A stretch of 64,000 nt of DNA from NCBI GenBank assembly GCA_965248835.1, contig CBDFLJ010000001.1, forward strand, positions 416,001 to 480,000, read 5' to 3'. A program made the position numbers and the translations under genes. The notes under the pieces are model-generated. The model ran no database searches. It was not told the DNA's origin and saw nothing but the letters and a program-made list of their open reading frames with translations. Shown one piece after another: positions 31,009 to 39,392 of this stretch. This stretch comes from Alphaproteobacteria bacterium (GTDB taxonomy: Bacteria; Pseudomonadota; Alphaproteobacteria; MPNO01). Every line of letters starts with the position of its first letter. The first letter of the stretch is position 1.

Positions 31009-31146
31009 GAATCGATCAAGGATGCCCCGCCGGCAGTGTTGCAGAAGGGCTGGTGTCAGCGACAGTGCTCCAAAACGGGCTTGTCGAGGGAATTGATTGG
31101 CGGCATAAAGGTCACCTCAATGCAACAACGGAAAGGAGGTGATCCA

Positions 31147-31218
31147 GTGTCTCATTGTCGCCAACCGCGGACGCGGGTGACCTGGGTCTCCACCTATCGG
31201 GGGCCGTCCGTCGCCTGA
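31147..31218 (+). CDS. 23-aa small ORF MSHCRQPRTRVTWVSTYRGPSVA
   Basis: GTG directly after GAAAGGAGGTGATCCA, a maximal Shine-Dalgarno; TGA at 31216-31218. Confidence 0.55.
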   Translation: MSHCRQPRTRVTWVSTYRGPSVA

Positions 31219-31258
31219 TGCGACGCTCGCGGACACTGCGTTCCGCGGTTAGACAATG

Positions 31259-31288
31259 TAAGGGCCGCCCGGTTACGGGCGGCCCTTA
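31259..31288. terminator. intrinsic (probably bidirectional) terminator hairpin
   Basis: perfect TAAGGGCCGCCCG-GTTA-CGGGCGGCCCTTA between the sORF unit (+) and the convergent cupin-like gene (-). Confidence 0.8.
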
Positions 31289-36516: not shown

Positions 36517-38124
36517 ATGACCTATCCCGACCTGCGCGCCTATCTCGAGGAGCTCGACCGGCGCGCGCTGTTGCACGTTGTCGACGTGCCGGTCAACAAG
36601 GATACCGAGCTGGTCCCGCTGGTCCGGCTCCAGTTCCGCGGCCTGGCGGAGCCCGACCGCAAGGCGTTCTGGTTCCGCAACGTCACCGATGCGCGGGGCC
36701 GCAGCTTCGACGGCTCGGTCGTGCTTGGCGCGCTCGGCAGCTCGCGGACGATCTATGGCGCCGCCCTCGGGATCGCACCGAAAGAGATCGGACAGACCTG
36801 GGCCGCGGCCCACGGCAACCACCTCAGCCCGGTGCGGGTGCCGCGCGCGGCGGCCCCCGTGAAGGAGGTCACGGTTTCCGCGCCGAATCTCGGCCAGGGC
36901 GTCGACCGCTTCCCGCATCTGATCTCGACGCCGGGCTTCGATCCGGCGCCGTTCATCACCGCGGGCGTCTGGGTGACCCGCGACCCGGAGACCGGCACGG
37001 CCAATCTGGGTATCTATCGCGGGATGATCAAGGCGCCCGACCGGGTCGGCTGCGCGACCGACGTGTCGACCCAGCATCTTGCGATCCAGTGGGAGAAGGC
37101 CAGACGGCTGGGCCGGCACCTCGAGGTCGCGGTGTTCATCGGCGGCCCGCCGGCCTTGTTGCTGGCCGCGGCCTCCAAGGTGCCGTACGGCGTCGACGAG
37201 TACGGCCTCGCCGGCGCGCTCAACCGCGCCGCAATCGAGGTCACCGAAGCGGAGACCGTCGACCTCTTGGTCCCAGCCGCGGCCGAGATTGTCCTGGAGG
37301 GCCGCGTCCGCACCGATATTCTGGAGCCGGAGGCACCGTTCGGCGAGGCGAGCGGATATCTCGGCCCGCGCAAGATGGAGAAGGTCTTCGAGGTCGGCGC
37401 CATCACCCACCGCCGGGCGCCGATCTACCAGGGGATCATCAGCGAGTTCCCGCCGTCGGAGAGCACCGTGATCCGCAAGGCGGCCTTCGATGCGGTCTAT
37501 CTGCGCCATCTCAAGGAGGCCTGCAACATCCCATCGGTCAGCAAGGTCGCCTGCCACGAAATGGCGAGCTGCAACATGCTGTTCGTCATCCAGCTCGACC
37601 GGCCCGAGCTCGGCCAGCCATGGCAGGCCCTGCGGGCGGCGGCGGCCTTCGATGCCTCGCTCGGCAAGATGTTCATCGCCGTCGATGCCGATGTCGACCC
37701 CGACTCGATGGACGCGGTCCTGTGGGCGCTGTCCTACAGCATGCAGCCGCACCGCGACGCCGAGATCATTCGCGGCAAGGTGCCCCGGCTCGACCCGTCG
37801 ATCACGCCCTCGGACGATGCCCGCCAGTTTGCCTATCCGGATGGCTCGGGCGCATCCGCGATCCTGATCAACGCCTGCCGCGAACACCCCTATCTGCCGG
37901 TCTCGCTGCCGCGGCAGGATTTCATGGAAGCGGCCAAGGCGCGCTGGGAGGCGCTCGGGCTGCCAGCGCTGGACCTTGGCGCGCCGTGGTACGGTTATCC
38001 GCTGAGCGCGTGGACTGAGGAAAACGCCGACGAAGCCGAGCGCGCGGTCACCGGACGATATTTCGAGACGGGCGAAAAGCTTGCGGGCCGACGCCAAAGC
38101 ACCGACTCAACAGCGTCGGAATGA
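36517..38124 (+). CDS. UbiD family prFMN-dependent (de)carboxylase
   Basis: YPDLRAYL, TRDPETG..NLGIYR, VPAAAEIVLEG, EAPFGE..GY, AVDADVDP, INACR. Confidence 0.92.
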   Translation: MTYPDLRAYLEELDRRALLHVVDVPVNKDTELVPLVRLQFRGLAEPDRKAFWFRNVTDARGRSFDGSVVLGALGSSRTIYGAALGIAPKEIGQTWAAAHGNHLSPVRVPRAAAPVKEVTVSAPNLGQGVDRFPHLISTPGFDPAPFITAGVWVTRDPETGTANLGIYRGMIKAPDRVGCATDVSTQHLAIQWEKARRLGRHLEVAVFIGGPPALLLAAASKVPYGVDEYGLAGALNRAAIEVTEAETVDLLVPAAAEIVLEGRVRTDILEPEAPFGEASGYLGPRKMEKVFEVGAITHRRAPIYQGIISEFPPSESTVIRKAAFDAVYLRHLKEACNIPSVSKVACHEMASCNMLFVIQLDRPELGQPWQALRAAAAFDASLGKMFIAVDADVDPDSMDAVLWALSYSMQPHRDAEIIRGKVPRLDPSITPSDDARQFAYPDGSGASAILINACREHPYLPVSLPRQDFMEAAKARWEALGLPALDLGAPWYGYPLSAWTEENADEAERAVTGRYFETGEKLAGRRQSTDSTASE

Positions 38125-38135
38125 AAGGCGCAAAA

Positions 38136-38209
38136 GAATCCACAGATTATCCACAGAAAAGAATGCAATGAGGTAAAATATTCAGAGAATATCCACATAA
38201 ATGTCCACA
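38136..38209 (+). promoter_or_regulatory. cluster of four co-oriented DnaA-box-like sites in an AT-rich patch
   Basis: GAATCCACA 38136, perfect TTATCCACA 38147, ATATCCACA 38189, ATGTCCACA 38201; surrounding 38125-38270 is strongly AT-rich relative to the window. Confidence 0.65.
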
Positions 38210-38269
38210 ATAAATTTTTCTCCGGCGCATTTTTTCTTGGCGGACTAGCGGAAATGTAAGAGTATTCAA

Positions 38270-38468
38270 TCGTGGAAACGCGGTCTTCGGATCGGGTGAC
38301 CATAGGCCCCGGAAGGGACGGGGTTCCTGGAAGCGGCGGTGAGCGGTCTTCGGAGCGCGCGCCAAAGGGACCGGAAGCCTCGGGTCGGAAAGGGTCTGGA
38401 GACGTCAGGAGCGTTCTTCGGAGCGCGTTGCGAGGGCCCCGCGTCCAAGCACCTGGCGTCTCTTTTAT
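38270..38468 (+). ncRNA. candidate small RNA with three cUUCGg hairpins, GGA-rich, ending in stem plus U-tract
   Basis: CTTCGG at 38285, 38348, 38416 each closing a short stem; 12 GGA in 38274-38422; GAGACGTCAGG (38400-38410) pairs with CCTGGCGTCTC (38452-38462) followed by TTTTATT. Confidence 0.6.
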
Positions 38469-38549
38469 TGTGCCGGGCGCATGTCCCGGACAAGCCGGAG
38501 CGGTCCGCCGCCCCCGGCGACCCCGCCTCGAGATATCCCGCATCCACCA

Positions 38550-38622
38550 CTGAAAAGGCCCGGCACCCCTGGCACCGAGCCTTTCCGGTCAGTATCGGAC
38601 CCGCGTCCATCGCACTTGGCGG
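38550..38622 (-). ncRNA. candidate ~70-nt small RNA on the minus strand
   Basis: begins just after a TTGACC-17-TATGCA promoter and ends in AAAGGCUCGGUGCC-AGG-GGUGCCGGGCCUUUU, a stem that pairs fully (via G-U) only on the minus strand. Confidence 0.55.
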
Positions 38623-38626
38623 GCTC

Positions 38627-38700
38627 TGCATACCAGACACGCCGAATCGGGTCAACCATATGTTGGGGTACATCAAACAATAACCTGCCAAATGTTGTAA
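38627..38700 (-). promoter_or_regulatory. sigma70 promoter with GANTC site and tandem NrdR-box-like operators
   Basis: minus strand TTGACC-CGATTCGGCGTGTCTGG-TATGCA; boxes CCCCAACATATGGTTG (38653-38668) and TTACAACATTTGGCAG (38685-38700), period 32 bp, first overlapping the -35. Confidence 0.6.
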
Positions 38701-38921
38701 GGCTCAGGGACCTCCCAAAGCGGCCTTGCTCGATCAGGCGGCGGGCACCGCGCGCGGTCGGATCGTTGCCGGGCGCACCCGGTCGGGCCTTCGCCCACGT
38801 TCTCTCCGCTGGGGGCGATCACCGCGCCATTGGACGGGCCGGTCCGTTACCGCCAAAATGGCGCATGCTCCGGCGGTACGGCAATCGCCTGCCGCCGGGA
38901 GCTCAATTGCCGGAGGGGCCG

Positions 38922-39392
38922 ATGGCCGAAAAACTGGGTATCGGGGATTCGTTCCCAAAGCTCCAGCTCTCCCTGGTCGGCGGTGGAACGCTCGACCTGC
39001 CGGATGGGCTGGACTCGCGCTACAAGGTGATCCTGTTCTACAGGGGCCACTGGTGACCCTTTTGCCGCCGGCAGTTGGCCGGCTTCGCAGAACACAAAGC
39101 CGCACTTGAGAAACTGGGGATCAAGGTGGTCGCGGCCAGCATCGATGCGCCCGACAAGGCCAAGGAGTTCGCCGAGGAGGTGCCCTTCCCCGTCGGCCAC
39201 AGCGTAAGCCGGCAGACGGCCGATGCGCTGGGCTCGTTCTGGGAAGACCGGCGCGGGCTGATCCAGCCGTCGGAGTTCATCCTGGACAGCGAGAACAAGG
39301 TCGTCGCCTCCTCCTACAGCGACGGCCCACTCGGGCGAATCGAAGGAGCCGATGTCGTCAAGCTGGTGAACTTCTACGACTCTCGAAAGTAG
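38922..39392 (+). CDS. peroxiredoxin-like (AhpC/TSA, redoxin) protein, probable selenoprotein with UxxC motif
   Basis: GGAGG RBS, ATG 38922, FYRGHW-TGA(39054)-PFCRRQL continuing in frame to TAG 39392; hairpin immediately downstream of the TGA. Confidence 0.85.

What the first reader, a model, noticed from the sequence alone, without database searches (positions are those of the whole stretch)
38270..38468. Three-module RNA with repeated cUUCGg tetraloops and 12 GGA motifs (protein-sponge-like)
Seen: three degenerate units, each starting TGGA (38273, 38328, 38397) and containing GCG(G/T)TCTTCGGA(T/G)CG, with the UUCG loops 63 and 68 nt apart. The stems use G-U pairs that work on the + strand. 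There are 12 GGA trinucleotides in ~150 nt, one in a hairpin loop (GGCCCCG-GAAGGGA-CGGGGTT). The last unit is enclosed by an 11-bp stem followed by TTTT. Established: C(UUCG)G is an extra-stable RNA tetraloop, and repeated GGA motifs are the hallmark of CsrB/RsmZ sponges. Inference: a modular RNA that presents repeated binding sites to an RNA-binding protein. CsrA is uncommon in alphaproteobacteria, so the partner may be different.
Basis: partly seen in the sequence, partly recalled or inferred. Interest (0 to 1): 0.72.

Follow-up and report, generated by a model that had tools for sequence, protein, structure and literature searches.

The report
DnaA-box-linked modular structured RNA gene
This is a real, free-standing non-coding RNA gene of an apparently undescribed alphaproteobacterial family, built from a variable number of very stable hairpins plus a conserved three-way-junction end, and always preceded by a cluster of binding sites for the replication initiator DnaA, which suggests an RNA output tied to the start of DNA replication.

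Summary
Three cUUCGg hairpins lie 63 and 68 nt apart, there are 12 GGA, and a 12-bp stem precedes UUUU.

It is a single-copy RNA gene at about 38272-38466 (+), not a dispersed repeat. It has homologs in 15 of 19 same-family genomes and in at least 14 of 150 other alphaproteobacterial families. None was found in 150 phylum-level genomes.

The 3' domain is a three-way junction and terminator. 19 of 26 pairs show compensatory change, and 0 of 500 shuffles reach this. No Rfam family matches.

The body varies from 1 to more than 15 hairpin modules, giving predicted lengths of 84 to about 956 nt.

A strict cassette pattern hits 8 of 151 genomes, and each hit lies upstream of this RNA domain. The reversed control gives 0 hits. 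The locus is not at oriC.

The genome has no CsrA, FliW or ProQ.

Best reading: a DnaA-controlled structured RNA whose partner is unknown. The sponge idea remains possible but unproven.

The parts
38137..38145 (+). DnaA-box-like site 1 (GAATCCACA, 2 mismatches to the recalled consensus TTATCCACA)
   Evidence: Read. It is one of four TCCACA cores on one strand. This is the only place in the 4.89-Mb genome with 3 or more such cores within 80 bp.
38147..38155 (+). DnaA box 2 (TTATCCACA, perfect match)
   Evidence: The genome holds only 4 matches to TT[AT]TCCACA or its complement on contig 1.
38189..38197 (+). DnaA box 3 (ATATCCACA, 1 mismatch)
   Evidence: It pairs with box 2 as one of only 7 box pairs within 60 bp in the genome.
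38201..38209 (+). DnaA-box-like site 4 (ATGTCCACA, 2 mismatches), the promoter-proximal box
   Evidence: The last box sits 27-29 nt upstream of the -35 in the window and in relatives.
38210..38236 (+). A/T-rich tract between the last box and the -35 (UP-element-like; inference)
   Evidence: Read. A comparable A/T-rich tract is present in the anchored promoter rows of most of the 21 loci.
38237..38265 (+). Predicted sigma-70-type promoter: -35 TTGGCG (38237-38242), 17-bp spacer, -10 GAGTAT (38260-38265)
   Evidence: Inferred from the anchored comparison of 21 promoters, which show TTGC/TTGN, 17 bp, then an A/T-rich hexamer. The generic scan did not call it.
38272..38466 (+). Predicted RNA, about 195 nt. 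The start is predicted to within +/- 3 nt and the end lies in the U-run.
   Evidence: Homologs. Covariation. A 157-nt metatranscriptome contig covers 38279-38435 with 3 differences and nothing outside the RNA.
38272..38303 (+). Module 1: 5' hairpin GUGG..CCAU with purine internal loops and a cUUCGg cap (loop 38286-38289)
   Evidence: Fold. The same 5' hairpin is present in relatives, with one pair changed on both sides in 3 of 13 sequences. It is duplicated in tandem in locus L002.
38304..38397 (+). Central domain. It holds module 2 (cUUCGg loop 38349-38352), a GGAA-capped hairpin region (38306-38320) and a conserved GGAAGCC loop motif (38373-38379).
   Evidence: The fold here is uncertain because two alternative pairings exist. 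The enclosing helix shows compensatory change at one pair: GU 10, CG 2, UA 1.
38398..38466 (+). Conserved 3' domain, a three-way junction that also serves as the intrinsic terminator. P1 is 38398-38409 with 38452-38463. P2 is 38411-38416 with 38421-38426, capped by UUCG at 38417-38420. P3 is 38430-38437 with 38443-38450. The U-run is 38463-38466.
   Evidence: Model R1 scores 96.6 bits. In 27 diverse sequences 90.1% of cells are paired, 19 of 26 pairs have a change on both sides, and 0 of 500 shuffles reach this.
38526..38640 (+). Possible decayed second copy: box-like and -10-like motifs, then a P3-like hairpin and a P1 3'-strand-like stretch. Uncertain.
   Evidence: Resemblance seen by eye. 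The pairwise alignment is weak and model R1 gives no hit there at E up to 10. A relative's contig covers 38537-38656 with 15 differences.

Best explanation
The finding is a free-standing gene for a structured non-coding RNA of about 195 nt. It belongs to a family restricted to some Alphaproteobacteria and absent from Rfam 15.

Every member has three parts:
1. A sigma-70-type promoter with an A/T-rich upstream tract, preceded by a stereotyped, helically phased array of 3-5 DnaA boxes.
2. An expandable body of 1 to more than 15 very stable hairpins. Most are capped by cUUCGg and many carry purine-rich internal loops.
3. An almost invariant 3' three-way junction whose outer helix plus U-run terminates transcription.

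Shown: the RNA structure is under selection. The gene is independent of its neighbours. The DnaA-box cassette and the RNA domain occur together and, in the genomes searched, the cassette occurs nowhere else.

Inferred: DnaA, probably as an ATP-DnaA oligomer nucleated on the strong boxes, sets transcription of the RNA. RNA level would then report the cell's replication-initiation potential. The RNA would act in trans through the conserved 3' junction domain. The repeated hairpins would serve as a multivalent binding platform or as a stabilising, Rho- and RNase-resistant body. The partner is unknown and is not CsrA.
For: Homologs and structure:
- BLAST finds homologs in 21 of 61 relatives' genomes, G000 included.
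- Model R1 finds 19 of 77 other genomes of the order, 15 of 19 in the same family.
- R1 finds 11 of 150 and R2 finds 18 of 150 other families of the class. 14 of the 18 are full-length junction hits.
- 0 of 150 genomes in a phylum sample have it.
- The 3' domain is 98.8% paired in 15 sequences. In 27 sequences it is 90.1% paired, 19 of 26 pairs have compensatory change, and 0 of 500 shuffles reach this. Slid controls give 38-52% paired.

Independence as a gene:
- Flanking genes differ between families: UbiD, 2-hydroxyacid dehydrogenase, PrpD, HpaB, ApbE, S2, LysE and others.
- No Rfam match in the window region or in 10 loci.
- Not found on phage contigs or plasmids.

Expression hint: one RNA-library contig lies wholly inside the predicted transcript.

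DnaA boxes:
- 29 of 38 distinct locus rows have 2 or more boxes with at most 1 mismatch upstream. 6 have one and 3 have none.
- Of the new hits found with the RNA model alone, 7 of 8 full-length junction loci (L081, L082, L085, L086, L091, L092, L093) have clustered boxes and L084 has one. Of the 4 short hairpin-only hits (L087, L088, L090, L094), one has a single box and three have none. The ambiguous L089 has none.
- The own genome has 261 such boxes in 4.89 Mb and only 7 pairs within 60 bp.
- Reciprocal test: the pattern TGTGGAWAA-N30-31-TTATNCACA hits 8 of 151 genomes at one place each. All 8 places lie 126-990 nt upstream of an R2 hit on the same strand. The reversed control pattern gives 0 hits in 151 genomes.
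- That cassette search led to a second, divergent family member in the own genome on the other contig.

Not oriC: the hemE-adjacent box cluster lies 786 kb away. One genome holds 3-4 copies and another holds tandem copies.
Against: - No binding or expression experiment exists. That these sites bind DnaA rests on the recalled consensus TTATNCACA.
- Whether DnaA would activate or repress cannot be told.
- Expression support is one 157-nt contig at word depth 3.4 in a metatranscriptome. DNA carry-over cannot be excluded.
- The folding energy of the window RNA is not significantly below shuffles: z = -1.53.
- Three loci show no box at 1 mismatch or fewer (L002, L024, L037). Two of them had only 600 nt of flank.
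- The gene is missing from 4 of 19 same-family genomes that are 97-100% complete, so it is dispensable.
- Module anatomy is heterogeneous. Only the three pairs next to UUCG are clearly enriched (72-77% against 41-44% in controls), and internal loops vary in size and sequence.
- GGA excess is not family-wide.
- No partner protein or target RNA was found.
Confidence: 0.55

Rival explanations
1. The functional unit is the DNA. The box array would be a datA- or DARS-like locus that titrates DnaA or changes its nucleotide state. The adjacent strongly transcribed, highly structured RNA gene would serve mainly to modulate that locus, for example through upstream negative supercoiling or polymerase traffic, and would not act in trans.
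For: - The boxes are phased, number 3-5, and lie outside oriC.
- The cassette is dedicated to this locus.
- Copy number varies from 1 to 4 per genome.
- Body length and sequence are very free, 84 to about 956 nt.
- Precedent: E. coli datA function is tuned by transcription from the neighbouring tRNA operon (PMC10950094, abstract read).
Against: - The RNA 3' domain shows strong compensatory covariation. This requires selection on the RNA fold beyond what a terminator needs: three helices with conserved junction and loop sequence.
- Transcription runs away from the boxes, unlike the datA read-through case.
- IHF sites were not examined.
Confidence: 0.2
2. It is a base-pairing small RNA. Its seed lies in the conserved 3' domain or the GGAAGCC loop. 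The hairpin modules would only stabilise the RNA. Hfq, which is encoded in the genome, would be the chaperone.
For: - Hfq is present in the genome.
- Conservation is concentrated at the 3' end next to a U-tailed terminator, as in many Hfq-dependent sRNAs.
Against: - The conserved stretches are mostly base-paired within the junction.
- The loop of P3 is not conserved in the long-form members.
- A crude duplex screen gave no usable result for dnaA. Only 7-8 nt of complementarity to the dnaA start region was seen by eye, which is chance level in a 67% G+C genome.
Confidence: 0.15
3. It is a CsrB/RsmZ-type sponge that sequesters a CsrA-family protein through repeated GGA sites.
For: - 12 GGA, against 6.46 expected.
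- Up to 61-62 GGA in the 860-960-nt members of the same taxonomic family.
- Repeated hairpins followed by a terminator.
Against: - No CsrA (PF02599) and no FliW (PF02623) in a six-frame search of a genome rated 100% complete. The positive controls rang.
- No CsrB/Rsm Rfam model matches at E up to 10.
- Most GGA are not in apical loops.
- GGA excess is absent in many family members.
Confidence: 0.03
4. It is non-functional repeat DNA, either REP-like or a selfish element, or a repeat-array antitoxin RNA of a type III toxin-antitoxin system.
For: - Tandem 33-nt repeats in some members (L038, L040).
- Non-syntenic, patchy distribution.
Against: - Single copy in the genome by BLAST, so not dispersed.
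- Strong structural covariation.
- No conserved downstream protein gene.
- Not found on plasmids or phage contigs.
Confidence: 0.03

Closest known systems
CsrB / RsmX-Y-Z protein-sponge RNAs
   Same: A non-coding RNA made of a variable number of repeated stem-loops, with purine- and GGA-rich sequence, ending in an intrinsic terminator. Unit number varies between species.
   Different: - No CsrA or FliW is encoded.
- No Rfam hit.
- Hairpins are capped by UUCG rather than presenting GGA in the loop.
- There is a conserved 3' three-way junction.
- The promoter carries DnaA boxes. The Gac/Uvr-type activator site of those RNAs is recalled, not tested.
CcnA (CCNA_R0094) of Caulobacter crescentus (PMC8959179; passages read)
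   Same: An alphaproteobacterial non-coding RNA physically associated with DnaA boxes and proposed to link replication control to regulation.
   Different: CcnA lies inside the replication origin, is flanked by CtrA boxes, is 182 nt long and acts through a CCCC loop. The RNA here differs on each count:
- It is 786 kb from the probable origin.
- It has no TTAA-N7-TTAA site anywhere in the window.
- It is multi-copy in some genomes.
- It has a different architecture.

Sequence similarity to CcnA was not tested because no CcnA sequence was in hand.
datA and DARS DnaA-box clusters of E. coli (PMC10950094 abstract; other details recalled)
   Same: A non-origin cluster of several DnaA boxes. datA activity is coupled to transcription of an adjacent stable-RNA (tRNA) operon.
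   Different: Those are DNA elements without an RNA product of their own. Here the boxes sit upstream of a dedicated promoter, and the transcript has a conserved, covarying fold.
DnaA-regulated promoters (for example gcrA in Caulobacter, named in PMC5988900, passages read) and predicted single DnaA sites upstream of some Caulobacter ncRNAs in that paper
   Same: DnaA acting as a transcription factor. ncRNAs have been proposed as DnaA targets.
   Different: That paper reports position-weight-matrix predictions of single sites in one species. Here a 3-5-box phased cassette is conserved with one RNA family across many families of the class and is exclusive to it.

Membership tests
CsrB/RsmZ-type CsrA sponge | A CsrA/RsmA-family protein is encoded by the organism | tested here: not met
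   PF02599 gives 0 matches in the own genome, which is rated 100% complete. Controls rang in E. coli, B. subtilis and T. maritima. FliW PF02623 also gives 0.
CsrB/RsmZ-type CsrA sponge | Many GGA motifs presented in apical loops of repeated hairpins | tested here: inconclusive
   12 GGA, and 1 of 2000 shuffles reaches this. In the predicted fold, 3 are the 3' side of UUCG hairpins, 2 lie in or at the end of the terminator stem, and at most 2 are apical.
CsrB/RsmZ-type CsrA sponge | Match to the curated Rfam models | tested here: not met
   cmscan of 38000-38800 at E up to 10 gives only a chance miRNA hit on the other strand. 10 homologous loci give none.
CcnA-like origin-encoded ncRNA | Located within the chromosomal origin | tested here: not met
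   The probable origin lies next to hemE at contig 1:1240457-1240658, while the RNA is at 454272. GC skew was too weak to confirm the origin.
CcnA-like origin-encoded ncRNA | CtrA boxes (TTAA-N7-TTAA, recalled motif) at the promoter and the gene end | tested here: not met
   0 matches with up to 1 mismatch in the whole window.
DnaA-box cluster / DnaA-controlled promoter | Several matches to TTATNCACA (recalled consensus), closely phased, conserved in position across homologs | tested here: met
   Four sites at 38137-38209. 29 of 38 locus rows have 2 or more boxes. The cassette pattern is exclusive to this RNA in 8 of 8 hits, and the reversed control gives 0 hits in 151 genomes. The anchored comparison of 21 promoters agrees.
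DnaA-box cluster / DnaA-controlled promoter | DnaA binds and changes transcription | not testable with these tools
   Needs EMSA or footprinting, ChIP and reporter assays.
Intrinsic (Rho-independent) terminator | G+C-rich stem directly followed by a U-run | tested here: met
   P1 stem 38398-38409 with 38452-38463, then UUUU. The simple scanner did not list it because the loop is a whole junction domain.
Dispersed REP-like repeat | Many copies at unrelated genomic sites | tested here: not met
   The 351-nt query has 1 match in the genome. Model R1 gives 1 match. 15-mer look-alikes with 2 mismatches or fewer number 50-92 scattered places, and the 12 printed for each motif are isolated apart from this locus. 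The three CTTCGG clusters read are coding DNA.

The most novel reading that the evidence does not exclude
Some Alphaproteobacteria would possess a dedicated RNA arm of the DnaA system. Their conserved three-way-junction domain and multivalent body would feed replication-initiation status into post-transcriptional control, or back onto DnaA itself. That would be an RNA-containing counterpart of datA/DARS-type initiator control, which has not been described.
Probability: 0.35. Interest if true: 0.9.

Novelty: new variant of a known kind. Interest (0 to 1): 0.78.

Why it matters
Outside the origin, initiator control is understood mainly in E. coli (datA, DARS, RIDA). In Caulobacter it is known through HdaA, proteolysis and the origin RNA CcnA. 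A conserved non-coding RNA family whose only constant upstream feature is a phased DnaA-box array would give a testable link between DnaA activity and an RNA effector in many poorly studied Alphaproteobacteria. The named carriers are metagenome-assembled genomes labelled Rhodospirillaceae, Defluviicoccus and Kiloniellales. One RNA-library hit comes from a run labelled sponge metagenome.

It also adds a new structured RNA class, with members approaching 1 kb and a clear three-way-junction signature, that can be modelled and searched at once. The expandable hairpin body is a natural case of rapid module gain and loss around a fixed functional core.

Tried and rejected
1. Caulobacter origin. I assumed this at first because of the Rfam CC2171 hit and read the CcnA paper. 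The named records are MAGs labelled Rhodospirillaceae, Defluviicoccus, Kiloniellales, Rhodospirillales, Alphaproteobacteria, Pseudomonadota and one Acidobacteriota, so Caulobacter sRNA lists do not apply. Two of the 24 pattern hits (L030 Sphingomonas, L033 Reyranella) show none of the RNA features upstream and read as chance matches.

2. Locus equals oriC. Rejected: hemE with its own box cluster lies elsewhere, and other genomes hold several copies. GC skew was too weak and irregular to place the origin.

3. Other CTTCGG clusters in the genome as further members. The three I read are coding DNA.

4. A general module rule of outer stem, tandem G-A loop, inner stem and UUCG. RNAfold of nine members suggested it. 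A count over 124 UUCG sites showed heterogeneous loops and 29 sites with no flanking pair, so I claim it only as frequent.

5. Target search. The duplex screen did not include dnaA, because my crude start-calling missed it, and its energies were uninformative. Only 7-8 nt of complementarity to the dnaA start region was seen by eye. Dropped.

6. Decayed tandem copy at 38526-38640. The alignment is weak and there is no model hit. Left as a note.

7. Phage contigs and plasmids: no match.

8. Earlier notes of this scan: nothing relevant.

9. Literature. Six full-text searches found no paper describing a DnaA-box-linked hairpin-array RNA. Subscription journals are not covered by this library.

10. 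Parts of the stretch without RNA-contig cover in run X5 are not evidence of silence.

11. ProQ is absent and Hfq is present. Neither result identifies a partner.

Full report
**1. Observation.**
TGGA starts at 38273, 38328 and 38397. Three near-identical 15-mers around CTTCGG start at 38280, 38343 and 38411, so the UUCG loops are 63 and 68 nt apart. A long stem (38398-38409 with 38452-38463) is followed by TTTT.

There are 12 GGA in 38272-38466, against 6.46 +/- 1.72 in dinucleotide-preserving shuffles. 1 of 2000 shuffles reaches 12, and the complementary strand has 2. Three CTTCGG are reached by 4 of 2000 shuffles.

The + strand folds to -93 kcal/mol and the - strand to -71. However, the + strand value is not unusual for its composition: z = -1.53, and 17 of 200 shuffles fold as well. 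Thermodynamics alone would therefore not carry the claim.

**2. It is a real RNA gene.**
- The 351-nt region is single-copy in the 4.89-Mb genome.
- BLAST finds it in 21 of 61 genomes searched, G000 included.
- A covariance model of the 3' part (R1) finds it in 19 of 77 other genomes of the order: 15 of 19 in the same family, 2 of 25, 2 of 26, 0 of 5 and 0 of 2 in the others.
- R1 finds it in 11 of 150 other families of the class and in 0 of 150 genomes of a phylum-level sample.
- A second model built from 27 diverse members (R2) finds 18 of 150 families. 14 of these are full-length hits. 3 genomes have only 41-52-nt hairpin hits that look like plain terminators, and 1 is ambiguous.

On the 27-sequence alignment the three helices of the 3' domain are 90.1% paired. 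19 of 26 pairs show a change on both sides with pairing kept. 0 of 500 column shuffles reach any of the five measures, and sliding the partners by 1-3 columns drops pairing to 38-52%. Frequent A-U to G-U exchanges against an invariant 3' strand fix the strand as +.

No Rfam 15 family matches the region at E up to 10, nor ten homologous loci at E up to 0.1. The only hit there is an rpsB leader beside one locus.

Flanking genes are conserved only within the family, where a UbiD-family gene lies upstream. Elsewhere they differ completely. It is therefore a free-standing gene and not a leader or trailer.

A metatranscriptome run holds a 157-nt contig covering 38279-38435 with 3 differences and nothing from the flanks. 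This is a hint of expression and no more.

**3. Anatomy.**

(a) 3' domain, 38398-38466. It is a compact three-way junction:
- P1 has 12 pairs.
- P2 has 6 pairs, is UUCG-capped, and is absent in one minimal member.
- P3 has 8 pairs, with a 2x2 purine loop that becomes Watson-Crick in other members.
- A U-run follows.

(b) Body. The window RNA has a 5' hairpin (38272-38303) and a central domain with a second cUUCGg hairpin. Relatives differ widely:
- One has this 5' hairpin duplicated in tandem.
- Others carry 7 to 12 or more tandem units of about 33 nt.
- One has a single module.
- A long subtype of about 550-950 nt mixes UUCG, GCAA and other caps.

Predicted lengths, counted from the promoter-proximal box, run from 84 to about 956 nt. 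UUCG counts run from 0 to 18.

Around 124 UUCG sites in 18 members, the three flanking nested positions pair in 72-77%, against 41-44% at random positions. Purine-rich internal loops such as CGAA/GGAA recur but are not universal.

(c) Promoter. An anchored comparison of 21 loci shows TTGC-type -35 elements, a 17-bp spacer, an A/T-rich -10 and an A/T-rich tract upstream of the -35. In the window these are TTGGCG at 38237-38242 and GAGTAT at 38260-38265, which predicts a start near 38272.

**4. The DnaA-box cassette.**
Upstream of the window promoter lie four sites on one strand: 38137-38145, 38147-38155 (a perfect TTATCCACA), 38189-38197 and 38201-38209. The consensus is recalled, not taken from a call.

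In the own genome there are 261 sites with 1 mismatch or fewer (0.053 per kb) and only 7 pairs within 60 bp. This locus is the only place with 3 or more TCCACA cores in 80 bp.

Across 38 distinct locus rows, 29 have 2 or more boxes upstream, 6 have one and 3 have none. These rows are not independent, because one genus contributes many.

Most families share one architecture:
- Two to four TGTG-type boxes at 11-12-bp steps, the second usually TGTGGATAA.
- About 31 nt further on, an opposed TTATNCACA followed by A-rich sequence.
- About 29 nt later, the -35.

The window's family has all boxes in the other orientation.

Of the loci found afterwards with the RNA model alone, 7 of 8 full-length junction loci carry the clustered boxes and L084 has one. 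Of the 4 short hairpin-only hits, one has a single box and three have none. The ambiguous L089 has none.

Reciprocally, the strict pattern TGTGGAWAA-N30-31-TTATNCACA matches 8 of 151 genomes at one place each. All 8 places lie 126-990 nt upstream of an R2 hit on the same strand. The same pattern read backwards matches 0 of 151 genomes.

One of these places is in the window's own genome on the other contig (264252-264299). It led to a second, divergent member about 550 nt long whose junction domain scores 24 bits with R1 and 43 bits with R2.

**5. Not the origin.**
dnaA lies at contig 1:1822005-1822490. hemE lies at 1239404-1240414, with an adjacent A/T-rich region holding its own boxes. This is the usual alphaproteobacterial origin context (recalled). 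The RNA is 786 kb away. One genome has 3-4 copies and another has two in tandem. GC skew was too weak to add anything.

**6. What it most likely does.**

Shown: selection acts on the RNA fold, and the cassette is linked exclusively to the RNA.

Inferred: DnaA occupancy of the cassette controls transcription. The phased weak sites next to a strong one would make this sensitive to oligomer-forming ATP-DnaA (established for E. coli, recalled). The RNA would act through its junction domain. The hairpin array would serve as a multivalent platform or as a protective body.

The CsrA-sponge analogy fails its membership tests. There is no CsrA or FliW, no Rfam match, and most GGA are not apical. GGA excess is also limited to part of the family. 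Hfq is encoded and ProQ is not. Neither was tied to the RNA.

The main rival is a datA/DARS-like DNA element whose neighbouring transcription is accessory. It fits the free body length and the variable copy number. It does not explain the covarying three-helix domain.

**7. Comparison and novelty.**
The closest described items are these:
- CcnA lies in the origin, is flanked by CtrA boxes and has a different fold (PMC8959179, passages read).
- E. coli datA has function coupled to tRNA read-through (PMC10950094, abstract read).
- Single DnaA sites are predicted by matrix scan upstream of some Caulobacter ncRNAs (PMC5988900, passages read).
- CsrB/Rsm sponges.

None combines a dedicated multi-box DnaA cassette with a conserved structured RNA. 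Six full-text searches found no description. The library lacks most subscription journals, so prior description cannot be excluded. I rate it a new variant of known kinds: a DnaA-controlled gene and a modular ncRNA.

**8. Limits.**
- There is no experimental evidence of DnaA binding, of transcript ends or of function.
- Taxon names of most carrier genomes are hidden.
- Counts across kin are not independent.
- The central fold of the window RNA is unresolved, with two alternatives.
- The gene is absent from four near-complete same-family genomes.

Noticed in passing
window 38922-39392 (+): An AhpC/TSA-family (peroxiredoxin-like) gene with an in-frame TGA at 39054-39056, at the position of the first cysteine of a CxxC-type motif. 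It reads GHW-U-PFC. Read through, Pfam AhpC-TSA matches residues 7-129 at E = 1.1e-21, across the TGA. A small hairpin follows the TGA. SelA is encoded elsewhere in the genome. This is a candidate selenoprotein.
   Followed up: partly
G000 contig 2: 264252-264907 (loci L083, L093, L104), outside the window: A second, divergent member of the same RNA family in the same genome. It has the canonical opposed DnaA-box cassette, a G+C-rich body of about 550 nt and a junction domain scoring 24 bits with R1 and 43 bits with R2. No clear U-run follows.
   Followed up: partly
window 38526-38640 (+): A stretch downstream of the RNA holds box-like and -10-like motifs, then a P3-like hairpin and a P1 3'-strand-like sequence. 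It may be a decayed tandem copy. A relative's contig covers 38537-38656 with 15 differences. The model gives no hit and the pairwise alignment is weak.
   Followed up: partly
window 31123-31286 (+): Rfam CC2171 sRNA family hit (102 bits, above the gathering score), in an organism whose relatives carry names other than Caulobacter. The family therefore reaches beyond the genus it is named after.
   Followed up: no
G000 contig 1: 1240457-1240658, outside the window: Probable chromosomal origin: an A/T-rich region with several DnaA-box-like sites directly upstream of hemE. GC skew of the two-contig assembly is weak and irregular and does not confirm it.
   Followed up: partly
G000 contig 1: 1384881-1384945 and contig 2: 2339150-2339214: Two near-identical copies of an element with an inverted pair of box-like ends (TGTGGATAA or TATGGATAA, then TTACCCACA) 55 bp apart. 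It looks like a repeated element and not a DnaA cassette.
   Followed up: no
loci L054/L091 (one genome) and L051, L062, L063 (another genome): Two family members in tandem about 870 nt apart, each with its own DnaA boxes. A different genome has three to four dispersed copies.
   Followed up: partly
locus L060: 1920-2041: In one complete genome the RNA gene lies about 4 kb from the start of the record, directly upstream of rpsB. The rpsB leader gives a sub-threshold Rfam hit (34.2 bits, E = 0.0024).
   Followed up: no
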